From NCBI GenBank assembly GCA_013239625.1, contig MU053504.1, positions 2,302,607 to 2,366,606 of the forward strand: 64,000 bases of DNA. The letters run 5' to 3'. The stretch comes from Lama guanicoe (Eukaryota). The position numbers and the translations under genes are program-made. How positions within the stretch are numbered: the stretch's first letter is position 1; each line of letters starts with the position of its first letter. The notes under the pieces were generated by a model that was given only the letters and a program-made list of their open reading frames with translations, searched no databases and was not told the origin of the DNA. This document shows, piece by piece, positions 1-64,000 of this stretch.

Positions 1-540
1 CTCCGCGTCCCTCCCGGCCTGGGGCCACTGTCCCAGCGCTCCCAGCTCCCAGTCTCAAAGCGCCGGGAGTGTGAGTGGGGAGGCTGGCGCGGGCCCACGG
101 TTTCCTCAGCATCCCGAACCCGGACCCGCCCGGCTCCCTAAGCGCCAGCCCGGGGACGACGGCCCTCGGCGACCCCGCCCTCGTTCGCTCACTTACTCGG
201 TCGTGCCGGCGGCGGCGGTGGCGAGCGTGGCAGGACCGTCAGCGCCGGGCGGAGGGCGGCGAGCTGCAGGAGTCTGTCGGGACCCAGCGCAGCTGAGGTG
301 GCAACAGCCGACTGCGCGCGGCGGCCCCCGGCGAGGGGCGGGCCCGGCGGGGGAGGGGCGGGCGCCGCGCCTCTCATTCAACAGCGGGGGCGGGGTGAGG
401 GACCCGGATGCCCGGGCAGCCCCCGCCCCCCTCGCTGAGCCCTCCCTGGCTTCAGAGTCTGGAGTGCGCAGGCGCAGCGCTCAGATACCCGCCCCGCCCC
501 GCCCCTCCCACTGAGGTTGTGCCACGAGAGGAGCTGGTGC
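1..540 (-). promoter_or_regulatory. CpG island promoter (continues beyond left edge)
   Basis: Very GC- and CpG-rich versus the CpG-depleted remainder; clustered GC boxes (e.g. GGGGCGGGG ~387-395, CCCGCCCCGCCCCGCCCC ~488-505); NRF1-like TGCGCAGGCGCA at 465-476. Confidence 0.9.
197..330 (-). other. Probable non-coding first exon of an unidentified minus-strand gene (5' limit approximate)
   Basis: Minus strand reads ...GGCACGACCGA|GTAAGTGAG, a consensus donor (GTAAGT = plus 191-196), downstream of the GC boxes; no ATG on the minus strand in 197-330. Confidence 0.6.
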
Positions 541-13979: not shown

Positions 13980-14089
13980 NNNNNNNNNNNNNNNNNNNNN
14001 NNNNNNNNNNNNNNNNNNNNNNNNNNNNNNNNNNNNNNNNNNNNNNNNNNNNNNNNNNNNNNNNNNNNNNNNNNNNNNNNNNNNNNNNN
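13980..14089. other. Assembly gap (110 N) flanked by poly(A) on both sides
   Basis: Run of N directly visible. Confidence 1.
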
Positions 14090-25178: not shown

Positions 25179-28100
25179 AAGAAACACTATCACAGAACAC
25201 TCCAGAGTAAGGCATTAAAGGAAGGACATAATTTTGAGAGATGGAGAAAGGAAGGTGAAATGGTATTCAGGGTGGGGAGAGGGGAAAGAAGGGTGAGAGG
25301 GAAGATTATACAAGCAAAGGTTCAAGGATGGAAAGAGCAAGAAATATCAGGAACATTGTGGGGACCAGGCTTTGGAGAAGTTGTGATAAATGAAGCTGAG
25401 GTGTCAACTTCAGTAGGAAGGCTTTGAATACCAAGATGAGGAGTTTGGTCTGGGAAGTCCCTAAGAGTCAGTGAGCAGAAGACAAAGGGTGTATCAGTTT
25501 GCTTTTGCTATTTAACAAAACACCCCAGAATTTAGTGACATAATACCATAATTATTTATTATTTCTCACTAATCTGTGGGTTGGCTGAGTGGATCTTCTG
25601 GTCTGGGCTGGCTTAGCTGATCATGGTGGTTCCCTCATGCATATTTGATTGACTAATGGATTGGATAGGGACTAGCTGGTTCAGGATAGCCTCATCATAT
25701 GGTCAGCATTTGGCTGGCTATTGGCTAGGCCACATGGCTTCTCATCTTTCAGAAGGCTAGCCTGGGCTTGTTCACATGGTGGCTAGGTAGATTTCCAAGA
25801 GAGGTGGAAATGCACATGGCCTCTTGAAGCCTATTCAGTATTGGCATTGTGCCACTTTGACCATATTCTATTGGCCAAAGCAATTCACAAGTCCAGCCCA
25901 GATTCAAGAGGTGGGGAAATACTTTTCCTCTTGATAGAAAGAGATGCAAAGTCACATTGCAAATGGTGTGGACACAGGAAGAGGAACAACTGTGGCCACA
26001 TTTGCAATTAATTTATCACAGAGGGTTTGAGAGTAGATGGTGGAACGTGAAACAGTAAGAAAAGAGCCCTGTGGACAGGGAGACTGGCTGGGACGCAATC
26101 ACAGTAGTGATTGGGAAGAAAAGGGTTAGATGATTGCCCAGACTCTCTAATGGGAAAGACTAGGGATGGGGGACAATAGAGAAAATGGGGAGGAAACAAG
26201 TCTCTGACTTTGAGGTCTGAATGGGCCAGGCAAGGGACAAAACCATTCACAGAGCTAGGGTGTCAGCAGGTGGCTGCTGGTGAAAGGCCTGTCCGATTTG
26301 GAGCCCTGCACCAGAGGGCCCTTGGAGGCCTTGGGAGATGGCAGCTTGGGTGTGCATTTGAGTCCTGAGGCCTCTGCTATCTACAAGCTGGGAGGGATCA
26401 TCAAGCCCTTTGACATCTCCTGGGCTTGCTGTTCCCCTCCGTAGGGTAGGGGGAGGAATTCTAACCTTGAAGGGCTGTTGGATGATAAATTGAGAGGCAC
26501 AGTAAATGGAAGCATTTTGTAAACTCTCCTGGGATGAACATTTATTAGTGGTTTTATGGCTTGGTTTTGTTTTTAATTCAAGAGATATTAGCCACCCAGG
26601 GATTGTGACTAGGACAGACCTAGGACAGGGCATGAAGGGGGAAGTGGAGGGCTCAGGGTTTGAGGGAAAATGCTGCTGTTAGGAGGTGAGAGGAAAAGAA
26701 GGATCCAGAGAGAGGGGGCATGATCTGTCCACAGTCCCTCTGACTTGGGGTTGGGGAAGTCTTAAGACAGTGGCAGTGTGGGGCACTCCCTATGGCTGCT
26801 CTGTGCTCACTCACATGTTGAGCTCAGAGTTGGAAGTCATACTGGGAGCAGTATGGTAGGAGATGTTAGTCTCAGTTAATCTCCCTGCTTGGTCCTCCAA
26901 AGGCAAACTCCTGGGTGGTCTGGACTGAGGTTGTACAGCTCCCCACTCCTCTCTTCTTTCTTATGCCTACTGCTCTGAAAAGTCCAGTGGCATCACTACT
27001 TCCAGATGTGGCCTCCAGATGTGGCCTGGAGCAGTTCCAGATGGATCAAGGATGCAGAGGCAGTAGCCAACCTCCTGGCTTTTCCTCCTCCCTTCTTCTC
27101 CAATGGGGCCTGCCCAATGTTTTCCCTTCTCTGCCTTCCTTCCACCACTAGGTCAGGGTACCAGGTACCCAGAGGCACTGGTGGATGGATAAATAAATGT
27201 TAGGAATAAACCTGAGCCAGACAGATGCATCTTTATTCGTGCTGGAAAGAGCTTATAACCGGGAGAGTGGAAAACTCTCAAATGTTTCCGTTCTGAGCAG
27301 TAAAGAAACACTATCACGGAACACTCCAGAGTAAGGCATTAAAGGAAGGACATAATTTTGAGAGATGGAGAAAGGAAGGTGAAATGGTATTCAGGGTGGG
27401 GAGAGGGGAAAGAAGGGTGAGAGGGAAGATTATATAAGCAAAGGTTCAAGGATGGAACAAGCAAGAAATATCAGGAACACTGTGGGGACCAGGCTTTGGA
27501 GAAGTGTTAAATGAAGCTGAGGTGTCAACTTCAGTAGGAAGGCTTTGAATACCAAGATGAGGAGTTTGGTCTGGGAAGTCCCTAAGAGTCAGTGAGCAGA
27601 AGACAAAGGGTGTATCAGTTTGCTTTTGCTATTTAACAAAACACCCCAGAATTTAGTGACATAATACCATAATTATTTATTATTTCTCACTAATCTGTGG
27701 GTTGGCTGAGTGGATCTTCTGGTCTGGGCTGGCTTAGCTGATCATGGTGGTTCCCTCATGCATATTTGATTGACTAATGGATTGGATAGGGACTAGCTGG
27801 TTCAGGATAGCCTCATCATATGGTCAGCATTTGGCTGGCTATTGGCTGGGCCACATGGCTTCTCATCTTTCAGAAGGCTAGCCTGGGCTTTTTCACATGG
27901 TGGCTAGGTAGATTTCCAAGAGAGGTGGAAATGCACATGGCCTCTTGAAGCCTATTCAGTATTGGCATTGTGCCACTTCGACCATATTCTATTGGCCAAA
28001 GCAATTCACAAGACCAGCCCAGATTCAAGAGGTGGGGAAATACTTTTCCTCTTGATAGAAAGAGATGCAAAGTCACATTGCAAATGGTGTGGACACAGGA

Positions 28101-29422
28101 AGAGGAACAACTGTGGCCACATTTGCAATTAATTTATCACAGAGGGTTTGAGAGTAGATGGTGGAACGTGAAACAGTAAGAAAAGAGCCCTGTGGACAGG
28201 GAGACTGGCTGGGACACAATCACAGTAGTGATTGGGAAGAAAAGGGTTAGATGATTGCCCAGACTCTCTAATGGGAAAGACTAGGGATGGGGGACAATAG
28301 AGAAAATGGGGAGGAAACAAGTCTCTGACTTTGAGGTCTGAATGGGCCAGGCAAGGGACAAAACCATTCACAGAGCTAGGGTGTCAGCAGGTGGCTGCTG
28401 GTGAAAGGCCTGTCCGATTTGGAGCCCTGCACCAGAGGGCCCTTGGAGGCCTTGGGAGATGGCAGCTTGGGTGTGCATTTGAGTCCTGAGGCCTCTGCTA
28501 TCTACAAGCTGGGAGGGATCATCAAGCCCTTTGACATCTCCTGGGCTTGCTGTTCCCCTCCGTAGGGTAGGGGGAGGAATTCTAACCTTGAAGGGCTGTT
28601 GGATGATAAATTGAGAGGCACAGTAAATGGAAGCATTTTGTAAACTCTCCTGGGATGAACATTTATTAGTGGTTTTATGGCTTGGTTTTGTTTTTAATTC
28701 AAGAGATATTAGCCACCCAGGGATTGTGACTAGGACAGACCTAGGACAGGGCATGAAGGGGGAAGTGGAGGGCTCAGGGTCTGAGGGAAAATGCTGCTGT
28801 TAGGAGGTGAGAGGAAAAGAAGGATCCAGAGAGAGGGGGCATGATCTGTCCACAGTCCCTCTGACTTGGGGTTGGGGAAATCTTAAGACAGTGGCAGTGT
28901 GGGGCACTCCCTGTGGCTGCTCTGTGCTCACTCACACGTTGAGCTCAGAGTTGGAAGTCATACTGGGAGCAGTATGGTAGGAGATGTTAGTCTCAGTTAA
29001 TCTCCCTGCTTGGTCCTCCAAAGGCAAACTCCTGGGTGGTCTGGACTGAGGTTGTACAGCTCCCCACTCCTCTCTTCTTTCTTATGCCTACTGCTCTGAA
29101 AAGTCCAGTGGCATCACTACTTCCAGATGTGGCCTCCAGATGTGGCCTGGAGCAGTTCCAGATGGATCAAGGATGCAGAGGCAGTAGCCAACCTCCTGGC
29201 TTTTCCTCCTCCCTTCTTCTCCAATGGGGCCTGCCCAATGTTTTCCCTTCTCTGCCTTCCTTCCACCACTAGGTCAGGGTACCAGGTACCCAGAGGCACT
29301 GGTGGATGGATAAATAAATGTTAGGAATAAACCTGAGCCAGACAGATGCATCTTTATTCGTGCTGGAAAGAGCTTATAACCGGGAGAGTGGAAAACTCTC
29401 AAATGTTTCCGTTCTGAGCAGT
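25179..29422 (+). repeat. Direct tandem duplication A, units 25179-27301 and 27303-29422 (each includes an MLT1-type LTR)
   Basis: Near-identical sequence at offset 2124 (2121 after a small indel); duplicated ORFs in the track (e.g. 26247/28368). Confidence 0.98.
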
Positions 29423-30744: not shown

Positions 30745-31110
30745 AGCTACTCAAACTTCAGTGTGCTCTTGCATCAACCTGTGGATCTCGTCAAAATGCA
30801 GATTCTGATTCAGCAGGTCTGGGGCAGGGTCTGAGAATCTCCCAGTTCTAACAATCTCCCAGGTGAAGCTGGGACTGCGGGTCCCAGGACCATATTTTGA
30901 GTAACAAGGGCCTACAGAACTTCTGTAAAAGAACTGGATGGTAAATATTTTCAGCTTTGTTAGACACCTGGTCTCTATGGCAGCTGTTCAATTCTGATTT
31001 GACAGCAGCGTAGACAATATGTAAATAAATGGATATGGTTGTGTTCTGATAAAATTTTATTTACAAAATGGGCAGTGGGCTGGGAATTTGTCCAGCAGCC
31101 TATGGTTTCC
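30745..31110. mobile_element. MER5-like plus MER58-like hAT DNA transposon remnants
   Basis: AAAATGCAGATTCTGATTCAGCAGGTCTGGGG...; GTAAATATTTT.AGCTTTG...GTTCTGATAAAATTTTATTTACAAAA. Confidence 0.75.
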
Positions 31111-40450: not shown

Positions 40451-40825
40451 TTAAAAAGGGCTTTTTAAGTGGGTTCCAAGGAGACACAACTATGATAGAT
40501 GGAGAAGGAGGTAAGGCATTCATCTTGAAGGAATAGCCTTGCACCATGTGTTGAGTTAACCATTTAAAGGGAGGTCCAGGGAAGACATGATCCCCTTAAT
40601 GGCAGCTGGACAGGACAGTAATACAGCAAATCCAAGTGTAAATGTTTGTTCACTTTCTGGCTTCATATCTCTTACCATGAGGACCTAAAAAGCCTGAAAT
40701 TTGAGCAGTTATTTTCGCACTTGGTTCCACACTAGAACCACTTGGGAACATTTAGAAATGATTTTGCCACCTGCAGATATTCTGATGAAATTGGTCTGAG
40801 CTGTAGCCTAGGCATCAGGATTTTT

Positions 40826-41475
40826 TTTTTGTCCTTCAATCCTTGTTTACTTGCTCTCTCTCTTTTTTTTTCATTTTTCAGTTTTATTAGGTAGAATTGT
40901 TTCAATTTGACTGTGTGTATACAATATATTGCACGTAAATACATATATACAATGTACTGCATGTATTTTTTTAGTTTACATATATGTACTCAACATTGTT
41001 TCTAAGAACAGTTTAGAGCTTTAGCTTTTTAAACTTACACAGTTATCAAAGAAATAAAGCCAACCACAAAATGAGAATCAACAGAATGTGGTAATCCAAT
41101 CATAAAGGACAGTCAATTGTGCTTACACATATTCAAGAAATCAATCATCTAAGTTATGAATAATAAGTAGTTCATTTGTGTCCTTTTTTTTAAGATTCCA
41201 CATATAAATGTTATCATATGACATTTTTCTTTCTCTTTCCAGCCCACTTCACTTAGAATGACGATCTCCAGATCCATCTATGTTGCTGCAAATGTTATTA
41301 TTTTATTCTTTTCTTGGCTGAGTAATATTCTGTTGTATACATATACCACATCTTCTTTATCCAGTCATCTGTTGATGGACATTTTGGTTGTTTCCATGTC
41401 TTGGCTATTGTAAATAGTGCTGCTATGAACATTGGAGTGCATGTGTCTTTTGAATTTTATTTTTTTCCAGGTATA
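40826..41475 (-). mobile_element. Chimeric L1-mediated insertion (L1 fragment + non-L1 polyadenylated sequence) inside a MER5-like element; second copy at ~42912-43565
   Basis: TSD TAGGCATCAGGATTTTT at 40809-40825 and 41476-41492; L1 sequence ~41166-41475; non-L1 part with minus-strand AATAAA at 40883-40888. Confidence 0.8.
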
Positions 41476-42146
41476 TAGGCATCAGGATTTTTAAAATCTC
41501 CCCAAGGAAACGAGTGTTTGAGACCATTGCTCTGGAGGGTTGTTAGAAAAACTATGTCTGGATCCTGAAGGAAAGAAAAAAGAAAAGATAAAATAAAGCC
41601 CTCAAATCTAGCAAACTCTTGGCCCTTGACACGGCAGAGAAGGAAAGAACCTAAGAATCAGGTTAAAATGTTCAAACCCAGTTAGTGGCCGGTTCCCCAA
41701 CCATATGATATTTTGAGCATCCATTGATAATCCTTATTCTAATTATTTCACTGGGGGTTGCAGGATTGTTATTTAGTTATTCTATCAGTCCTTTGACATT
41801 TATTTACTATTAGTTGAATTCTTCTTTACTTTCTATTTTGCTTTGAGTATCACTATGAACTCATGTTTTTTTTTAAAAGAACATTTTGTAATCAGTTATA
41901 GTTATTCTTTTTGATTTACTCAAAATGTTCCAAAATTGGTCAGTGGCAGTCCCTTCAAGCTAATGCCTTTGTCCTTTCAGCATGACCCCATGTATTTTTG
42001 AGCCCTTCCCTGCTTTCTGCACTGGTGGATGCCAAGTCCAGTGGGGAACAGAGCATTTACATGCTGTGAAATTAATACCCCATTACTTGTTTAATTTCTA
42101 CGGGAGAAGCACCTCTTTACATTAGAAAGATCTGGTGGTCACCATC

Positions 42147-42600
42147 TGTATTCTTTTCCTGGGACAGCCTAACAAATGACCTTAAATGGGATGGCTTCAA
42201 AGAACAGAAATTTGCTCTCTCACAGTTCTGGAGCTGGAAGTCTGGAATCAGGAGGGCTGGTTTCTTCTGAAGGCTCTGAGTGAGAATAAGTTCTGTGCCT
42301 CCCTTTAACTTCTGCTGGTTGCCGGCAATTCTTGACATTCCTTGTTATATAGACACCCCACTCCAATCTCTGCCTCTGCCATCACACGGTGTTGTCTCTG
42401 TGTGTCTCTGTGTTTTTGCATCCGAGTTCCCCTTTTATTAGAATACGAGTCATTGGATTAGGCCCACCCTAGGCCAGTATGACCTCATTTTTGGCTTGAT
42501 TACATCTGTAAAAACACTATTTCCATATAAAATCACATTAATAGGCACTGGAGATTAGGATTTCAACACATCTTTTGGAGGGACACAGTTCAATTGACAG
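42147..42600. mobile_element. MaLR LTR (MLT1C-like); duplicated at ~44237-44690
   Basis: ACAGAAATTTGCTCTCTCACAGTTCTGGAG...GTCATTGGATTAGG...GATTACATCTG...GGGACACAGTTCAA. Confidence 0.8.
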
Positions 42601-45039
42601 TGCCTTAACTAGTGATCAGACTTACCATCATGTGTAGTCAGACAACTGAACCTTGTGAGTCTCCTGCTATAATGCGACATGATGTCATAGTACCATCTTT
42701 GAAGTACTCTTGCTAAAAAGTTTATCCGGAATCTAATTAAGGGTTCTGAATGAACTTCTAGATGACAAGAAATATAGAGGGTAGAAAAACTGAGTAAATG
42801 ACATCATAATGAAGCAATCTGACAAGTCTGGAATAGGAATGTTCTGTAAGACAACTAGTCTGGTATCCTCAAAAAGCTAATGTCACAGGTAAAAAAAAAA
42901 AAGCATCAGGATTTTTTTTTGTCCTTCAATCCTTGTTTACTTGCTCTCTCTCTTTTTTTTTCATTTTTCAGTTTTATTAGGTAGAATTGTTTCAATTTGA
43001 CTGTGTGTATACAATATATTGCACGTAAATACATATATACAATGTACTGCGTGTATTTTTTTAGTTTACATATATGTACTCAACATTGTTTCTAAGAACA
43101 GTTTAGAGCTTTAGCTTTTTAAACTTACACAGTTATCAAAGAAATAAAGCCAACCACAAAATGAGAATCAACAGAATGTGGTAATCCAATCATAAAGGAC
43201 AGTCAATTGTGCTTACACATATTCAAGAAATCAATCATCTAAGTTATGAATAATAAGTAGTTCATTTGTGTCCTTTTTTTTAAGATTCCACATATAAATG
43301 TTATCATATGACATTTTTCTTTCTCTTTCCAGCCCACTTCACTTAGAATGACAATCTCCAGATCCATCTATGTTGCTGCAAATGTTATTATTTTATTCTT
43401 TTCTTGGCTGAGTAATATTCTGTTGTATACATATACCACATCTTCTTTATCCAGTCATCTGTTGATGGACATTTTGGTTGTTTCCATGTCTTGGCTATTG
43501 TAAATAGTGCTGCTATGAACATTGGAGTGGATGTGTCTTTTGAATTTTATTTTTTTCCAGGTATATAGGCATCAGGATTTTTAAAATCTCCCCAAGGAAA
43601 CGAGTGTTTGAGACCATTGCTCTGGAGGGTTGTTAGAAAAACTATGTCTGGATCCTGAAGGAAAGAAAAAAGAAAAGATAAAATAAAGCCCTCAAATCTA
43701 GCAAACTCTTGGCCCTTGACACGGCAGAGAAGGAAAGAACCTAAAAATCAGGTTAAAATGTTCAAACCCAGTTAGTGGCCGGTTCCCCAACCATATGATA
43801 TTTTGAGCATCCATTGATAATCCTTATTCTAATTATTTCACTGGGGGTTGCAGGATTGTTATTTAGTTATTCTATCAGTCCTTTGACATTTATTTACTAT
43901 TAGTTGAATTCTTCTTTACTTTCTATTTTGCTTTGAGTATCACTATGAACTCATGTTTTTTTTTAAAAGAACATTTTGTAATCAGTTATAGTTATTCTTT
44001 TTGATTTACTCAAAATGTTCCAAAATTGGTCAGTGGCAGTCCCTTCAAGCTAATGCCTTTGTCCTTTCAGCATGACCCCATGTATTTTTGAGCCCTTCCC
44101 TGCTTTCTGCACTGGTGGATGCCAAGTCCAGTGGGGAACAGAGCATTTACATGCTGTGAAATTAATACCCCATTACTTGTTTAATTTCTACGGGAGAAGC
44201 ACCTCTTTACATTAGAAAGATCTGGTGGTCACCATCTGTATTCTTTTCCTGGGACAGCCTAACAAATGACCTTAAATGGGATGGCTTCAAAGAACAGAAA
44301 TTTGCTCTCTCACAGTTCTGGAGCTGGAAGTCTGGAATCAGGAGGGCTGGTTTCTTCTGAAGGCTCTGAGTGAGAATAAGTTCTGTGCCTCCCTTTAGCT
44401 TCTGCTGGTTGCCGGCAATTCTTGACATTCCTTGTTGTATAGACACCCCACTCCAATCTCTGCCTCTGCCATCACACGGTGTTGTCTCTGTGTGTCTCTG
44501 TGTTTTTGCATCCGAGTTCCCCTTTTATTAGAATACGAGTCATTGGATTAGGCTCACCCTAGGCCAGTATGACCTCATTTTTGGCTTGATTACATCTGTA
44601 AAAACACTATTTCCATATAAAATCACATTAATAGGCACTGGAGATTAGGATTTCAACACATCTTTTGGAGGGACACAGTTCAATTGACAGTGCCTTAACT
44701 AGTGATCAGACTTACCATCATGTGTAGTCAGACAACTGAACCTTGTGAGTCTCCTGCTATAATGCGACATGATGTCATAGTACCATCTTTGAAGTACTCT
44801 TGCTAAAAAGTTTATCCGGAATCTAATTAAGCGTTCTGAATGAACTTCTAGATGACAAGAAATATAGAGGGTAGAAAAACTGAGTAAATGACATCATAAT
44901 GAAGCAATCTGACAAATCTGGAATAGGAATGTTCTGTAAGACAACTAGTCTGGTATCCTCAAAAAGCTAATGTCACAGGTAAAAAAAAAAAGACGGTGTG
45001 TATGTGACCAGCACTGCCCAACTTTCTTAATTTAATTGT

Positions 45040-47575: not shown

Positions 47576-47730
47576 GTGGTTCTCAAAATGTGGTCTCCAG
47601 ACCATTAACATCACCTGGGAACTTGCTAGAAAGTCAAATTCTTGTGCCTACCCCAGACTTACTGAGTCAGAATCCCTGTGTGTTAATAAACCCTCCAGGT
47701 GAGGACCCTCCAATTTGAGAACTACTAACC
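47576..47730. mobile_element. MER5A-like DNA transposon (others at ~55201-55380 and ~62980-63150)
   Basis: GTGGTTCTCAAAATGTGGTC...CATCACCTGGGAACTTG.TAGAAA...TTTGAGAACTACT. Confidence 0.8.
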
Positions 47731-49375: not shown

Positions 49376-50350
49376 CCGCAGCTGGTAACCCCGCACATGA
49401 TAGAGTTCTTTGGCAACTTTCCTTGCACCAAGCAGAAGCCCTGGAGCTGCTCAGAGAAGATGCAAGGACACAAAGTCAAAATCTGTCCCTCACTCAGCTC
49501 AGGACACCTGTTGTCTTGGAGACACTAGAGGCCAGTGTTCCCTGCCCAGCTGGCCTTTCTCACTGGGCCACCTCCATGGCAGCGTATGGGGCCGTTTCTG
49601 TCTCTGGTCTGGCTGACCTCTGGGCAGGTCCTTACTCATGTGCCTATACTGCTGTGTTTGCCTCGTCTGTTCTGGAATGTGGGTCCCCTTTTCTCTTCCC
49701 TGAACAACCACCAGACCTTTGGATTTAGATCTTAGCAGCCCCTGGGGAGCACCCTTAGACCTCTCCCCATGCACAGGGCTCCTCTCGGCTCTCTCTAGGC
49801 CCTCTCCCAGCCCAGGAGGCTGAGCTACATGGCTGCTCCTTTACTCTGGCTTCTGGTTGAGTGTGACTAGAACTGCTGGAACTGGAGGGAGGGAGAAATG
49901 AGAGAGGTGGGGCCATTTTTTCTCCCAGTTCCTTCCTGTAGCTTCCTGGAGCCTGGCGGTGTCCCTGTCCCAGGTCACAGCTTCTTGTCAGGCTGCCGTC
50001 TCCATGCAGCCCTCTCTGCCTCCAGGTTTTACTTCTCTGGGCTAACAGCTCCCTGCCTCAGCCCTTCAGGACCCGTGGTCATAGAATCCAGCTGTCACTA
50101 CTGTTCCTGACCTTGAGATCCCCCCATATGCTGCCCAAAGCTTTGTAAATAAATCCCTTTATTAAGAATTATCCTAATTTGATATCCTAGAATTATCCTA
50201 ATTTGAATTTGCATCTGTTTCTTTCTGGGATGCTGACTGGTACTGAAACCGAGTTTTATCCAAAACTTTTTTTCTTTCTGGTCCCATACCTGTTCCCCTC
50301 AAGGGAGTATCAAAGAGGGGTATTTGAGGAGTATCAAAGAAAAGATGGAT

Positions 50351-51277
50351 TGAAACTGAGCAGGACCCTGTGGGGACGTCCTGGGTACAAAAGCCTTTCC
50401 ATGTCCTGCTTCTTGTTTGTAGGAAAAGGGCTTCGGCCTCCTAGACCTTCCCTGAGTTCCAAGGGTAGATTCAAACAGTTACTAATTAGGGGAGTGAGGG
50501 AATGTGGAAACAAAGCAAAAGCAGTCAAAAACAATAGTGCAAAAATAAAAAATAAATATATATTTATATATATTTAAATAAATAAAATTAAAAAAAAAAA
50601 AAGAAAACAAAGTGGGGAGAGTATAGCTCAGTAGTAGAGTGTGTGCTTAGCAAGCATGAGGTCCTGGGTTCAATCCCCAGTACCTCCATTAAAAAAATTT
50701 TTTTTAAAATAAATAAACCTAATTACCTCCCCTTAAAAAATAAACAAAAAACACAAAGCAAACAGAAAAAAAGAGAAAAAGAAAGAAAGAGAGAAAGAAA
50801 GAAAGAGAGAAAGAAAGAAAGAAAGGGAGAAAGGAAGGAAGAAAGAAAAGGGCAGTGATACAGCAGAGTCCTAGTTCCGCCTCAAGGGATACACATAACA
50901 ACCTGATGTTACCTTGGAGTTGTTCTGCAGGAACGAAGGCCCCCACCCAGGTGGAGGATGGTTACTACATGCTGAGACCCCAGACCGGCTGGAATCAGAA
51001 GGGTGGTGATTGAGATTCCTGGAATCACCACCCTGATACCTCACCACCAACCAATCAGAAGAAAGTTATGCACCTTGCAGCCGTCAGCCCTCAACGTTGC
51101 CTTTAAAAATGCTTCCCTGAAACCCACTGGGGAGTTTGGTTCTTTTGAACTTGGATCACCCATACTCCTTGCTTGGCACCTGCAATAAACACCGTACTTT
51201 CCTTTACCACAACCCAGTGTCAGTCAATTGGTTTTGCTGTGTGACGGGCAAGTGGACCCAAGTTCGGTCTGGTAATA
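50351..51277 (+). mobile_element. ERV1-type solo LTR (MER41-like), split by a SINE and A-rich tracts
   Basis: TGAAACTGAGCAGGACCCTG start; CCAAT (~51051), TTTAAAAA (~51103) and AATAAA (~51184) in LTR order; homologous to the inverted LTR at 52123-52658. Confidence 0.7.
50614..50848 (+). mobile_element. tRNA-Ala-derived SINE with GAAA-expanded tail
   Basis: GGGGAGAGTATAGCTCAGTAGTAGAG...GGTTCAATCCCCAGTACCTCC...AAACCTAATTACCTCCCC. Confidence 0.9.
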
Positions 51278-52122
51278 GTACAGAGATCTTTGTTCTCTGT
51301 TGTGCCAGAAATCTATCTTTATAGCCCCTGATCCCTAGAAACAGCCAAGTCAAGTGGTGAGTACCCAGGAACTTAGCCAGGGGCCACTCCCTTGTTCCTT
51401 GGAAGTGCACACTCTACCTCATTTTGAAGGAGAATTAATAAAATGGCCACACGCAGGCTAGCAGATTATTTATTCTTATGTTTGCTCTTAAACTGGCCAA
51501 CTAACCTGACTGATCTGTTGCTGTTCACAGCTCCAGGCCCATTGTTAAAATGAAGCTATCTTTATCCAGTCTCTGTTTTATTCCAGTAATCAAAAGCGGT
51601 AGTTATACTTGGTTTCTGAGTTGGTCTCCAGGGAGAAGGTCACGGGACTGTAACTTTACAAAATAGTCTGAATCACCAAGAAGACCACGCACTTAAAGAT
51701 AAAGAGACTGAAACAGTAACAACCACTAGCCTCTATAGAATTGGTCGCCTGGAGACATCATGATGCCACTCTAAGTCTTATGACAAGAAAATGGTTCTGT
51801 TGATTGTTATCGATGTTTTGTTGTTTGAGCTATGGCTAATCACCCTCCCCTATCCCTAAGGTGGGTTCACAGTTTTGAAGGCACTAGTCTGCTATGAGTC
51901 CCCTTTGCCCGGCAAAGCAATAAAGCCGTCTCTTTTCTTCGATGTTCTAAAACCTTGTCTCTGAGTTTCAGTTTGGCTCATCAGGGACGGGGGCCAATCT
52001 TACAGCAACAATGTTGCCCCAAACGTATCCACTTGACCTTCCATCCATAGCTGATTGGAAATCTATTCTAGGGATCTAGAAGTCCTGTCTTTTTCTTTTT
52101 CAGCTTCAGGGCCCGATGGAGT

Positions 52123-52658
52123 TGTTAGTGAGCAAAAGTTCATGTGCCCAATGCACAGTGAGGTCAAACAAACTGAAACGTTGGAGTATGGAGTGGGAAA
52201 GGTTTATTGCAGCGCCAAGCAAGAAGAATGGGTGGCTTGTGCTCAAAAAACCCAAAATTCTCAATGATTTTTTGGGAAAAGTTTTTATAGGGAAAATTTG
52301 GGATGAGGGCTCAGGGTGTGTGGCTTTCTTCTGATTGGCTAATGGTGAGATAACAGGGTTGTGATCCAGGCATCTTGTGCTCAGCCTGAACTGGGGTGGG
52401 GGCCTTAGTTCCTGCAGAAGAACTATTCCTATTGCACTATTGTTTCTTGACTATCCCTCCCTTGAGTCTGCATTCTTCCCCTTCACTGATTAGCTGATGT
52501 TTGTATCTGCCCTTTGGAACTCAGGGAAGGTCAAATAGGCTGAATGAAGCCTATTTCCTGCAAACAAGAAATGGGGGGCATGGTAAGGATTTCCATGTTT
52601 CAGAGGCAAGATGGTCCCCTCAACCAGAGCACCCCGCCCCCAGACAGGTCCCCTTCAA
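52123..52658 (-). mobile_element. ERV1-type solo LTR related to 50351-51277
   Basis: Reverse complement shares CTTGTTTG.AGGAAA...GACCTTCCCTGAGTTCCAA.GGG.AGAT.CAAACA; TG...CA ends; minus AATAAA at ~52203-52208. Confidence 0.7.
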
Positions 52659-52679: not shown

Positions 52680-53205
52680 GAGTTCTACTCTCTGTTTCTC
52701 TGAGTTTGGCTTTTTTTAAGGTTCCATATATAAGTGACATCATATAGTATTTGTCTTTCTCTGTCTGACTTATCTCACTTAGCATAATGCCCTCAAGTTT
52801 CATGTAAATTGCCGCAAATGGCAGGATTTCCTTCTTTCTCATGAGCTGAGCTGTGAGAGCAGATGGGCTTCCCTGGATAAAGTCAACCTCAACAGCCTGG
52901 CTGTTGTAATATTCTCATGGCTGAGTAATATTCCATCGTGTGTATGTGTGTGTGTGTGTATAGAAAACATTTTCTTTATCCATTCATCCATTGATAGGTA
53001 CTTGAGGCTGTTTCCATATCTTGCCTATTGTAAGTAATGCTGTAATGAATATGAGGGTGCAGACTCTCTTTGAGATCCTGTTTTCATTTCCTTTGGATAT
53101 ATAATTCAGAAGTGAGATTGCTGGATCCCATGGTAGTCCCATGTTTCATTTTTTTGAAAAACTTCCATACTGTTTTTCATAGTGGCTGCACCAGTTTACA
53201 CTCTA
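52680..53205 (-). mobile_element. Old L1 fragment containing a templated insertion
   Basis: Minus ORF 52600-52842 KKEILPFAAIYMKLEGIMLSEISQTEKDKYYMMSLI is the L1 ORF2p C-terminus. Confidence 0.9.
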
Positions 53206-53222: not shown

Positions 53223-53943
53223 CTTTTTTTTGTATATATATTTGTTGGAGTATATTCTGTTTACAATGTTGTGTCAATTTCTGGTGTACACCATAATGCT
53301 TCAGTCATACATCAACATACATATGTTTGTTTTCATATTCTTTTTCACCATAGGTTACTATAAGATATTGAATATAGTTCCCTGTGCTATACAGTATTAA
53401 CTCGTTGTTTATCTGTTTCATATATATTAGTTAGTATCTGCAAATCTCAAACTCCCAATGTATCCCTTCCCACCTCCTTCCCCCCTGGTAACCATAAGTT
53501 TGTTGTCTATGTCTGTGAGTCTGTTTCTGTTTTGTAAATAAGTTCATTTGTCTTTTTTTTTAGATTCCACATGTAAGTGATATATGGTATTTTTCTTTCT
53601 CTTTCTGGCTTACTTCACTTAGAATGACAATCTCCAGGTCTATCCATGTTGCTGCAAATGGCATTATTTCATTATTTTTTATGGCTGAGTAGTATTCCAT
53701 TGTATAAATATACCACAACTTCTTTATCTAGTCATCTGTTGATGGACATTTAGGTTGCTTCCATGTCTTGTCCATTGTAAATAGTGTTGCTATGAAAATT
53801 GGGATGCATGTATCTTTTTGAACTAAGGTTCCCTTTGGATATACACCTAGGAGTGGAACTGCTGGATCATATGGTAAGTCTATTTTTAGTCTTCTGAGGA
53901 ATCTCCATCCTGTTTTCCATAACAGCTGCACCAAATGACATTC
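53223..53943 (-). mobile_element. Younger 5'-truncated L1
   Basis: ORF2p C-terminal peptide [24 protein letters not shown]; perfect TSD TGGAGGGGCAGT at 53211-53222 and 53944-53955. Confidence 0.92.
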
Positions 53944-54475: not shown

Positions 54476-56267
54476 ACCAGTCGGTGTCCACCAGAGAAAT
54501 GAATTGCATGGTGGTGGGAAAAACTCCACACAGCTGGTGCCTGAAGTGCTCTGTACGAGTGTGGAGAAAGGTTTCCCGAGTCCTGGGTGGGCTGTGAGCC
54601 ACTGCAGCCTTGCTCCACCGGCCTGCCGTTGAGGTGGGAGGGATCAGGACAAAACCACACACAGGAGAAGAGGCCTCCCCCGGCTTGTGGGAGTCACTTG
54701 GAGGCTTGGGCTCCAACCTGGGTCTGCTGTCAATGAGCTGGGTCGATGGACATGTCCCTTCTGCTCTCAGGGCCTCAGGCTCCTCACAGGTAGCCAAGGG
54801 GGGAGACCTATAGGCCCTGCTTCATCAGTGCGAGGGGCTGAGTGCATCCTGGGAGCGCTGGTAGGGTGTGCAGGCCAGGGATACCGCCGACTCCAACGTG
54901 GCTCTCTGAGTGTGAGGCCTTGTTCTCTCTGGGAGAGGAGCCAGGGCCCCCCGCCCCCATTCTTCATTCAGAAAGCTTGGGCTCCCAGCCAGGGAGAGAG
55001 CCTCCTGCTCCAGCAGCTCAGCCTTCTTCTCGGCTTCTGGCCTCTCCCTCCTCTGGGCTCTTCCTCCAACTCCTGCGCTGAATCAGGGCGCCCAGGGGAG
55101 CTAAGCGCAGGCTGTTGAGGTTGACTTTATCCAGGGAAGCCCATCTGCTCTCACAGCTCAGCTTTTAGTCATTGGAAATTGTCTGTTCCACATGTTAGAG
55201 CAGTGCTTCCCAAAGTTTGGACTCCACACCAGTAGCAAGAGCCACACCTGAGAACTTGTTAGGAATGCGAGTTCTCAGGTCTCATCCCAGACCTGCGGAA
55301 TCAGGTACTCCAGTGGGTGCAACCCGGCAGCAGGCGTTTGAAGGGGCCCTCCAGGGGATGCCCCATGTGAGAACCACTTGAATCTGTTCTAGAAATGGCT
55401 AGGAGCTGTTGCTCCTACAAAAGATGCAGGAGGGGCTGGTCTGGTGCTTATCTAGATCCCTTGTAGCTGCAGGTGCCCCATTCCGGGCTCCTGTGAATGA
55501 GGCTGGCTGCTAAGGCCTCCGGCCGGCCCTTCTCTTGAGCTCCGCTCTATGCTGAATCACTATGCTCAGAAATGCTTGAGAGATTATGTACTTACCACCA
55601 CCTCCCCCTCGCCGCCACCACCACCGTGGGCTGCGGCCAATGACTGATGGACGGGATATAACAGGCTGGCCCCTTGTCTCAAGGTGGGACATTCTGGTGT
55701 GAATTACTCTCTGGAGCCCCTCTGTGAATTAGGTCAAGGCTAGATTTTAATTGCTCCAAGTTGTTGCTTACCCCAAATGTCCAGAGCGGCTGTTGGTACA
55801 ACAGGTATGAATTACCGTACAAGACTCTGGTAAAAAAAGAAAATGTCACTTGGCTTGCTTTGGAAAAATAAAAATAAACCTGGCTGTGAAGCCCTGCCCG
55901 CCAAGACGGCGCTGCTCAGCACCCTCCTCTGTGGGCTGGCGTGCACTCAGCCAGGGGGCCTTTCGCAGTGGGGGAGGCTGGGGCCGTCCCTGGATCGGAG
56001 GCCCTGGTACCACTCTGCGATGGGCACATTTACCTCTTGGCCTTAAAGAATCAACTCATCTGTGCTTGGTCCAGAAGTCACAGGAACATGTTTCACAGGG
56101 AGCCCAGGAAATACAAAAAATTTGTCAATGATTCTCCCCCCAAACTGCCCTTTCTGAAAGGAGAGGCAAGATGTTTACTTTTTGTCCTCAATAGGAAAAA
56201 AAAAAAAAAGGCAAGACATGAATTAATTTCCCTAATTCGTTTCTGGAAGTTTCAGAGCAGAAGGTGT

Positions 56268-61222: not shown

Positions 61223-64000
61223 GGAAGAACTAATCTCCAAGTGGCAATTCTATGGCCAAAGAGGAAAGGAATAGACCCAAATGGGCCAACCAAGGAACTC
61301 ACTCCGTTGTCAGGGCAGAGATTCCATGACTCCTGTGGGTTAAGTATGGCTTGGTCATAGCTTGGACCAGCGACTGTTGGGCAGGTTTCCCATTCTCCCA
61401 CTTTTCAAATGAGTGTTTTGTTGTAGTTATTTTGTTTCTACTCCAGCATTGCACACATCCCCATGCACAGTGGGGCCGGATAATATGTCTTTTATTTTAT
61501 AGGCCATTGAATGCAGAGAAGTTTATCCAGATCTGATGGGGAGAGCAGCACATCTCCCATAGACCTGGACTTTGAGCTAGAATCATTCATTGGATAGGAC
61601 TTTGGGACCTTTAGGGAGGGGCAAGGGTTTTTTTCTACGTATGGGCAGAGAGCTTGCATGGCCAAAGTGGTGGACTGTTAAATCACTAAATTGATTGTGG
61701 TGGTGACAACATAACTATATGAGTTTTTCAAAAATTGGAGAACGGCACATTAAAAAGGGTGAGCATTCATACATATAATTTATACCTTAAAAAAAAAGAA
61801 GGAAAAATGCAGGCATCCTCAGGGCATTTTACAATCGCACTCTCTTTGACATGGAAATAAATGCTGTTCACCACACACACACACACACTAGCTGGGCAGG
61901 GGAGATCAAGAGTCTTATTTTGGGCATGTTGAATTTGAGATGCTCAAAGACAGTTGGACAAAAATCCAGGCCCAGGCGGAGTGATTGTGGGCTGTTGATG
62001 CAGATTTAGCAGACACCATGTTGAAGCCATGGGGCTAGAGAGAGAGTGTAAGCAAGGGGAGGCAGCCCGTTCCAAGACTGGAGCACTCCAGCACTCAGGA
62101 GGCACATCCACTGAGGTAGGAGGAAAACCCACTCGGGGAGGGCGGGGCCCCAAAGAAGCCAAGAGCCGAAAGCCTTCCCAGAAGGAGGCAGCTGTCAGCA
62201 GTTTTGAATGTTTCTGAGAGATTGAACGAGTGAGTGAGGGCCACTGGATTTGGGAACCAGGAAGTTTTGGGGGGTTTTAGCAGAGTGTGAAGGAAGGTAG
62301 ACTAAAGTAGGTTGCGAAGGGAGGAAGTGGTGATGGGACCTGTCCCTAGTACTTTGAAGCAGTTTTGCTTTGAATATCAAGTGAGGAATGGTGGTAGCTG
62401 GAGGCAGACACAGAGGTCTAGGGAAGCCCCCCTTTCCACTTTGTTTAAAGATGAGAATTGCTGAAAGATACTTGTATGCTTGTGGGAATGGTCCACTAGT
62501 CCCACAAGAGAGAAAGTGAGGGAAGAAATAGGAGAGGAGGGAGAACTGAAGGAGGAGGGACACAAGTGATAGAAGTGGGATCTTCTCCATCTCTGAGGAG
62601 TATGGGGAGAGAGAGCGGGTCCTAAGTGGAGGTGGGTCTGAAGATTTGGAAGGAGGATGGCGTCTGCTTCCTCAGTGAAGAGTGAAGCAATGAAGAGAAT
62701 GGTGCCTGTGTCCTCAACAGCTGGGCTGGGCACACAAGGGGGTGTTGGAGGTTTGAGAACAGAGGAGAAGGAATGAACAAGTCCCAGCAGAGAGTGGGAG
62801 AGGCAGCACCCACGGGAAGAGTGGTGTGCTGGGAAGGCAATGCTGAGAGCCCCGTGGCCCTGGATAGAAAGGGAGGCCAGTGACTAGGCTGAGTGACTTT
62901 CTCCGGCAGTACTCACTATCCAGGTTCTCTGGGGTTTGTGCAGAGTGCAGGCAGCTCTAACTCAATCAGTTATTCTCACAGTGGGCTTCATCGACCAACA
63001 GGATGAGACTCACCTGGGAACCTGTTAAAAATGCAAATGATTGGACACCACCCCAAACCTACTGAATCAGAAACTCTGGGGTGGGGCCCAGCCATCTGTG
63101 TTTTTTGCAAGCTCTCCAGATGGTTCCAAAAGCTTGAGAAGATCTGAACTAGAGTGAAGGAACTTGAGGGCACTGGGGATGACCTGCAACTTGAAGCTGA
63201 GAATGGCTACCATCTTCCAGGGCAGAAGTCCTCATGCTATGAGCTCTGGTGTATCTTCTCTCTTAACTAGTGACAGATCTAGAAGCAAACCCTGGGTATT
63301 GCCAAGGACAAAATGCTGTTAAGAGGGGCTCTGACCGTTCTAATGAAAGATTGTTTCACAAGGTAAACACATCTTTCAAATGTACTTTTTATTTTTCTGA
63401 ATCTGCATTTGAATGGGTTTTGTGTAATTGGATTTTTGCTCCTGCCACAGTGTTTTGAAAGGATCCTGGACTCTCCTTTCTCTCCCCAGGGCATGTCTTC
63501 CAGGCTTGTCACAGGGACCTTCTTGAGCCCTTCTCTCTCCTTCCACATGGCTCGTTCCAGTTTTCAAGTCTGTGGGGAAACAACAATGAACCGGACACTC
63601 TCCTACGTGTGAGAGCTGAAATAAAGACCAGGATGAGTCAGCCTCTGCCAACCTCCAGGATCTCCCGGTCCTCCCAGTGACTCAGAGGATGGTCTGTTTA
63701 ATGGGTAAGTGCTCCTCCCAGGAAGCTGGCAGCCCCAGCCTCCCCCTACCTGAGTCACCAGGCCTGGGTGCTCCTATCAAGACATAGTTATCTCCAGGAC
63801 CAGGGGAGGCAAGCCAAGAAAGATCAGGGATAAATGGACCAGGAAATAGGATGGGAATTGAAAGGCTAAGATATGGGAGGCTAAATTTGTTCCTCATTTG
63901 CCTGTGGCCTTGAGTGGACCAACAAAGAGCTCCTATTTGAAAATGGGAGAAATTGAGAATCCTCCAATGTTGGTAGCCCCAGTAGTGGCCCAAAAAGGAG

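What the first reader, a model, noticed from the sequence alone, without database searches (positions are those of the whole stretch)
52836..52934. Perfect 56-bp inverted templated insertion copied from ~2.2 kb away, with a patchwork repair scar
Seen: 52844-52899 is the exact reverse complement of 55108-55163 and interrupts otherwise continuous L1 sequence (...TTCTCATG|GCTGAGTAATATTCC). It is followed by GCTGTTG (fold-back of its own CAACAGC), then TAATATTC (also at 52927-52934) overlapping TTCTCATG (also at 52836-52843). Donor and target share GCTGAG. Established: multi-step microhomology-primed copying of nearby DNA is a signature of polymerase theta-mediated end joining or MMBIR/FoSTeS template switching. 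Inference: a recent germline repair event (zero mismatches inside an old L1) that also creates a 56-bp inverted repeat across ~2.2 kb.
Basis: partly seen in the sequence, partly recalled or inferred. Interest (0 to 1): 0.7.

Follow-up and report, generated by a model that had tools for sequence, protein, structure and literature searches.

The report
Inverted copy patched into dead LINE-1
A dead LINE-1 element in this mammalian genome carries a 76-base insertion made of a perfect backwards copy of DNA 2.2 kb away plus short local copies, likely an ordinary scar left when a copying strand switched templates during replication or repair, and it is not confirmed in raw reads.

Summary
52844-52899 is the exact reverse complement of 55108-55163. 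It is part of a net 76-base insertion (52844-52919) into an L1 fragment, with no L1 sequence lost: 56 bases of donor, 12 bases of locally templated filler and an 8-base target duplication. The filler is not chance (at most 17 of 20,000 shuffles are covered as fully). Read 5'->3' on the top strand, four of five junctions have 1-4 bases of pairing; the entry junction has none, only a 6-base match shifted by one. Most likely one growing strand left the site, copied the donor backwards, returned and stuttered three times. This fits the proximal repair-mediated duplications of Pace et al. 2009 (824 in human, 202 in cow). Polymerase theta is not shown, and the 56-base tract from 2.2 kb away is untypical for it. 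"Recent" is weakly supported: 0 of 56 mismatches allows up to about 5% divergence. Read support, empty sites in relatives and genome-wide copy number stay untested; I put an assembly artefact at about 13%. This scan already noted similar events on other pieces of this genome. Ordinary.

The parts
52720..52843 (-). Left half of the host L1 fragment (end of ORF2 and what follows it), antisense
   Evidence: Aligns with two other L1 copies in the window; limits are those of the aligned stretch
52836..52843 (+). First copy of the 8-base target duplication TTCTCATG
   Evidence: Identical to 52912-52919
52844..52899 (+). 56-base perfect inverted copy of the donor
   Evidence: 56 of 56
52900..52903 (+). 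GCTG: first 4 bases of the right flank, copied after a likely return to the site through 2 shared bases (TG)
   Evidence: 2 bases back, 4 bases forward; 52898-52903 equals 52918-52923
52899..52906 (+). Fold-back copy of 52890-52897; 7-bp stem with 3-base loop
   Evidence: -6.1 kcal/mol with DNA parameters; a 4-bp stem (-2.5) exists before the extension
52906..52914 (+). 9-base direct copy of 52925-52933 (right flank)
52912..52919 (+). Second copy of the target duplication, overlapping the previous piece by TTC
52920..53200 (-). Right half of the host L1 fragment, ORF2 C-terminal region, broken by stops and frameshifts
   Evidence: match to LINE-1 ORF2p chains, E 1.5e-6
55108..55163 (+). Donor: non-L1 sequence, 2208 bases from the copy, no third copy in the window
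   Evidence: no Pfam family in 28 of 28 frames tested around it and at the acceptor

Best explanation
A dead L1 fragment holds a 76-base insertion made of a perfect inverted 56-base copy of DNA 2.2 kb away, 12 bases copied from within 15 bases of the junction and an 8-base target duplication, likely written in the germ line by one growing top strand that hopped between templates at a stalled or broken replication fork. Inferred path: the strand stops after 52843; it copies the donor's opposite strand from 55163 to 55108; it returns to the exact site through TG and adds GCTG; that GCTG pairs with the strand's own CAGC and a snap-back adds TTG; it re-anneals to the right flank through G and adds TAATATTC; its TTC end slips back 8 bases before the site and synthesis resumes, which duplicates TTCTCATG. 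The pieces and overlaps are shown. The order, the single strand, the fork and any enzyme are inferred. The 3-8-base rounds would suit polymerase theta; the 56-base tract would suit a more processive polymerase. No function is proposed: it is a neutral scar. Confidence that it is a real template-switch scar of any route is about 0.85; the number given is for this path.
For: Exact pieces and overlaps. No loss of L1 against two paralogues. Filler fully templated, far above chance. The fold-back piece needs the donor copy to exist first, which sets the direction on the top strand. Direct copies from both sides of the site (52836-52843 and 52920-52933) need a bottom-strand template unbroken across about 22 bases. 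An inverted copy from ahead of the site is what a switch to the lagging-strand template gives (geometry 1-4-3-2, the type found in 31% of events in PMC5453318, passages). The size, distance and junction class match Pace et al.: 753 of 1,136 donors within 3 kb, and microhomology plus target duplication plus filler in 2 of 39 proximal cases (sections 6-7). Normal humans carry 26-33 complex multi-template germline events each among calls of 25 bases or more (PMC8421209, section 10 part 1).
Against: The entry junction, the longest jump, has 0 strict microhomology; the 6-base GCTGAG match is shifted by one base and reads more naturally as a final annealing of a bottom strand (such a match occurs at 21 of 11,564 start points nearby, a test chosen after seeing it). 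The path was fitted after the fact, and 1-2-base overlaps are often chance. One other parse works too: donor continuation with one base skipped gives a 3-base primer. Filler AT content (65%) is hardly above the flank (61%). No read, individual or relative was examined at base level. The assembly shows likely false duplications 8 and 23 kb away.
Confidence: 0.5

Rival explanations
1. Two-ended double-strand break. The resected right end folded back on its own single-stranded tail 2.2 kb inward (or invaded the sister), copied the donor on the bottom strand and was joined to the left end through the 6-base match with one base bulged, polymerase theta finishing the join. This is the SDSA model of Pace et al. 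and the first reader's TMEJ reading.
For: An inverted copy from the resected side is expected from intramolecular snap-back (inference). The longest match then sits at the last junction, as reported for secondary microhomologies (PMC7165422, passages). The class microhomology plus target duplication plus filler is in Pace Table 1.
Against: In this direction the 7-8-base fold-back piece must be made before the donor copy that templates it. Direct copies of the right flank need the top strand that resection would have removed. No deletion is present, whereas 25 of 39 proximal cases of Pace had one (Table 1).
Confidence: 0.27
2. Assembly or library artefact: a chimeric read or a gap-filling error placed donor sequence in the L1.
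For: Two tandem duplications of 2123 and 2090 bases, each with one A between the copies and allele-like differences, suggest assembly error in this window. No listed run holds more than 0.68 of 38 sampled words over the site, which is also what a private allele would give.
Against: Assemblers join on overlaps far longer than 0-4 bases (general knowledge). One chimeric molecule would need five junctions and an exact return with an 8-base duplication. There is no N or duplicated flank at the site.
Confidence: 0.13
3. Capture of a free fragment: a flap or displaced strand from the donor, already carrying its fold-back end, was ligated into a staggered break.
For: Zero strict microhomology at entry. 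In yeast, complex insertions often hold two inverted pieces of one locus and are captured by end joining (PMC11724301, passages).
Against: The GCTG that primes the fold-back matches the acceptor's right flank, and the 9-base flank copy still needs synthesis at the site. A free fragment has no reason to come from 2.2 kb away.
Confidence: 0.07
4. Mobile-element route: L1-mediated retroposition of a transcript piece, or a hAT-type insertion (8-base target duplication).
For: 8-base target duplication; a dispersed repeat resembling MER5A (label recalled) starts 37 bases from the donor.
Against: No poly(A) or poly(T) tail. The duplication does not start with an A-rich endonuclease site in either orientation (consensus recalled). 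The 68 bases between the duplications have no terminal inverted repeats. None of 39 proximal cases of Pace had a tail.
Confidence: 0.03

Closest known systems
Proximal repair-mediated duplication (Pace, Sen, Batzer, Feschotte 2009, PMC2671141; read: abstract, sections 6, 7, 12, 21 and passages; supplements not seen)
   Same: Insertion of 50 bases or more inside a transposable element; donor 50 bases to 5 kb away; no poly(A); microhomology, target duplication and filler (2 of 39 proximal cases); common in mammals (824 human, 202 cow, 192 dog).
   Different: At the small end (their median 147 bases). Here the filler resolves fully into local templates. Orientation counts were not in the passages I saw and may be in their Table S1. 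Uniqueness and an orthologous empty site are untested here.
Complex MMBIR-like templated insertions, germline class (PMC8421209; read: passages and section 10 part 1 of 2)
   Same: Inverted first template, further templates in forward direction, short microhomology or one-gap microhomeology at junctions, 26-33 complex events per person.
   Different: They were called from reads and mine is from an assembly; I did not see their template distances.
Polymerase-theta templated insertions (PMC7165422; read: abstract passage and passages)
   Same: Several rounds of under 10 bases in direct and inverted orientation, each making the microhomology for the next.
   Different: The 56-base tract from 2.2 kb away exceeds their 3-30-base flanking insertions; AT enrichment is unclear; POLQ dependence cannot be read from sequence.
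Four-point template switch, type 1-4-3-2 (PMC5453318; read: passages)
   Same: Leave, copy in reverse complement from ahead, return at the same site; creates an inverted repeat.
   Different: Their model is short-range and single-round and explicitly leaves out long-range and repeated switches.

Membership tests
Proximal repair-mediated duplication | Insertion of at least 50 bases interrupting one transposable element | tested here: met
   76 bases; L1 on both sides
Proximal repair-mediated duplication | Element halves adjacent within 30 bases of consensus | tested here: met
   No loss against two paralogues in the window used in place of a consensus
Proximal repair-mediated duplication | Donor more than 50 bases and less than 5 kb away | tested here: met
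   2208 bases between the arms
Proximal repair-mediated duplication | Donor at only one other place in the genome | not testable with these tools
   No genome is held; no third copy in 64 kb
Proximal repair-mediated duplication | No poly(A/T); microhomology, filler, deletion or target duplication at the ends | tested here: met
Proximal repair-mediated duplication | Empty site in relatives, or PCR or read validation | tested here: inconclusive
   Only word shares of 24 listed runs and a model of them; nothing seen at base level
Polymerase-theta templated insertion | Synthesis rounds rarely over 10 bases, templated from flanking DNA | tested here: not met
   Met by the 3-8-base pieces, not by the 56-base tract from 2.2 kb
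Polymerase-theta templated insertion | Insert richer in AT than its flanks | tested here: inconclusive
   Filler 65%, flank 61%, donor copy 46%
Polymerase-theta templated insertion | Dependence on POLQ | not testable with these tools
   Needs genetics
Complex MMBIR-like templated insertion | Several templates, at least one inverted, with microhomology or one-gap microhomeology at junctions | tested here: met
   4 of 5 junctions with 1-4 paired bases, the fifth with 6 bases at one gap
Complex MMBIR-like templated insertion | Event supported by reads | tested here: inconclusive
   No base-level read data obtained
L1 target-primed retroposition | Poly(A) tail and endonuclease-type site | tested here: not met
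   Sequence at both ends; site consensus recalled
hAT insertion | Terminal inverted repeats inside an 8-base duplication | tested here: not met
   Ends of the 68 bases do not match

The most novel reading that the evidence does not exclude
A very recent allele, private to one lineage or animal, that records base by base a 2.3-kb jump from leading to lagging template at an uncoupled fork, followed by polymerase-theta-like stuttering with no sequence lost. It would suggest that part of the proximal repair-mediated duplications come from fork template switching rather than from two-ended break repair, testable by comparing donor side and orientation with fork direction across many events.
Probability: 0.25. 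Interest if true: 0.35.

Novelty: new member of a known kind. Interest (0 to 1): 0.2.

Why it matters
Little by itself: a neutral 76-base change in a dead L1, of a class counted in hundreds per mammalian genome. Its value is as a clean example in which every inserted base has a template and the hops can be ordered. If it segregates, it is a presence/absence marker. A 56-base inverted repeat with arms 2.2 kb apart is unlikely to matter structurally (inference).

Tried and rejected
No whole genome is held, so genome-wide copy number is open. Read support at the junctions was not obtained. Run search: 24 runs listed, 22 hold part of 52700-53100, 20 hold half or more of 38 sampled words, best 0.68, with no gap among the top 20 across four coded organisms. 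An otherwise identical empty allele would hold 299 of 371 words. In simulations, a best of 25-27 of 38 arose with probability 0.19-0.35 for empty and 0.000-0.19 for filled alleles, depending on an unknown systematic loss of L1 words. This leans towards absence from those runs but does not decide it; none of the runs was seen at base level. Pfam on 28 frames around donor and acceptor: 0 of 28 hits, so an exonic or RNA-templated donor has no support and is not excluded. Rfam found only 7 tRNA-like SINE heads. Earlier scan notes near the site and by donor sequence: none. Inversion of the intervening 2.2 kb: rejected for this assembly. Restriction-ligation (Hi-C type) chimera: considered because CATG meets AGCT at entry, rejected because the donor end carries no matching site. 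Mate-pair circularisation junctions give direct, not inverted, joins (general knowledge). Literature searches were on mechanisms and artefacts; I did not search for this locus and make no claim about its absence from print.

Full report
Observation. The 56 bases at 52844-52899 are the exact reverse complement of 55108-55163, 2208 bases away, and the match stops sharply at both ends. A sensitive search finds no third copy in the window. Aligned to two other L1 copies in the window, the host is continuous across one gap, and its right half matches LINE-1 ORF2p residues 1167-1214 in solved structures (E 1.5e-6; the neighbouring copy E 1.2e-22). So the L1 site is the acceptor, the net insertion is 76 bases (52844-52919), and no L1 sequence is lost. 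The host is 70-71% identical to those paralogues over aligned columns. The SINEs look camelid (label recalled; earlier notes on this genome agree).

Anatomy. After the donor copy come GCTG (the first four bases of the right flank, with TG shared before it), a fold-back that makes 52899-52906 the reverse complement of 52890-52897, a 9-base copy of 52925-52933, and a second TTCTCATG that overlaps the previous piece by TTC. The shared GCTGAG is shifted by one base, so strict microhomology at entry is zero. The 20 bases after the donor copy are fully covered by local matches of 7 bases or more; this happens in at most 17 of 20,000 shuffles and at most 68 of about 19,600 genomic 20-mers over four flank sizes. 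The 12-base middle alone is significant only at about 1-5%.

Mechanism. Shown: the pieces, their templates and their overlaps. Inferred: one top strand made them in order. The fold-back needs the donor copy first, and a 4-bp hairpin (-2.5 kcal/mol) appears exactly after GCTG is added. Direct copies from both sides of the site need an intact bottom template. An inverted copy from ahead of the site is what a switch to the lagging-strand template gives. I therefore commit to a template-switch excursion at a stalled or broken fork, ended by three short rounds of the polymerase-theta type (0.5 for this path, about 0.85 for a real scar by any route). The weak point is the entry junction: the longest jump has no strict microhomology, and the 6-base near-match fits a bottom-strand, two-ended repair better (0.27). 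The path is fitted after the fact, and one other parse of the donor exit exists. Sequence cannot name the enzyme: primary theta tracts are rarely over 10 bases (PMC7165422, passages), and yeast makes fold-back and same-locus inverted insertions with Pol delta and end joining (PMC11724301, abstract and passages).

Is it real, and how old? I have no base-level read evidence. Among 24 listed runs the best holds 0.68 of 38 sampled words; an empty allele caps at 0.81. A model favours empty alleles strongly if few words are systematically missing and hardly at all if up to 30-40% are, so this is inconclusive. Against the assembly: two tandem duplications of about 2.1 kb in this window have a single A between copies and allele-like differences, 15 substitutions plus one indel and 9 plus one, and earlier notes list other 2.1-kb duplications in this genome (unchecked). 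For reality: five junctions with 0-4-base overlaps and an exact return are not how assemblers err (general knowledge). I put artefact at 0.13. Age: 0 of 56 mismatches allows up to 5.2% divergence, and 9 of 10 human-specific events screened by Pace et al. appeared fixed, so 'much younger than the L1' is supported and 'very recent' is not shown.

Comparison. Pace et al. 2009 (PMC2671141; abstract, sections 6, 7, 12, 21 and passages) defined this class by insertions of 50 bases or more in transposable elements with a donor within 5 kb: 824 in human, 202 in cow, and microhomology plus target duplication plus filler in 2 of 39 inspected cases. All sequence-level criteria that I could test are met; genome-wide uniqueness and an orthologous empty site are open. 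Their supplement (Table S1, not seen) may give orientations. Complex multi-template germline insertions number 33 and 26 in two people (PMC8421209, section 10 part 1). The geometry is the 1-4-3-2 type of PMC5453318 (passages), though that model excludes long and repeated switches. L1 retroposition and hAT insertion fail their tests (no tail, no terminal repeats).

Verdict. A new member of a known kind, neutral, tidy, unconfirmed in reads. The scan has noted similar events on other pieces of this genome. Interest 0.2.

Noticed in passing
window 25179-27301 / 27303-29422 and 40812-42901 / 42903-44991: Two head-to-tail duplications of nearly the same length (2123 and 2090 bases), each with a single A between copies and 99.2% / 99.5% identity; 11 of 15 and 7 of 9 substitutions are transitions. 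Same size, same spacer and allele-like differences suggest two haplotypes placed in a row at contig joins. Earlier notes list further 2.1-kb duplications in this genome, so a systematic assembly artefact is likely.
   Followed up: partly
window 13980-14089: The only N gap, 110 bases, flanked by A runs on both sides.
   Followed up: no
window 50410-52592: Several 70-88% inverted matches between 50410-51190 and 52202-52592: two related LTR-like fragments in opposite orientation just left of the host L1 (label recalled, untested).
   Followed up: no
window 55201-55385: Dispersed repeat 37 bases right of the donor with three relatives at 67-69% identity (30805-30906, 47576-47670, 62967-63076); resembles MER5A (recalled).
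   Followed up: partly
window 53560-53935: A second, different antisense L1 ORF2-end fragment 360 bases right of the host.
   Followed up: partly
window 50165-50182 and 50189-50206: Perfect 18-base direct repeat with 24-base spacing.
   Followed up: no
window 1-500: CpG island, 77% G+C, CpG observed/expected 0.86; probably a promoter; gene not identified.
   Followed up: no
window 54828-55164, minus strand: Purine-rich open frames next to and through the donor, with a GATAAA motif inside the donor; could be a promoter or exon, but no Pfam hit.
   Followed up: partly
window 14870, 15977, 20115, 35629, 50617, 58053, 61105: Seven tRNA-like Rfam matches that sit at the heads of a SINE family.
   Followed up: no
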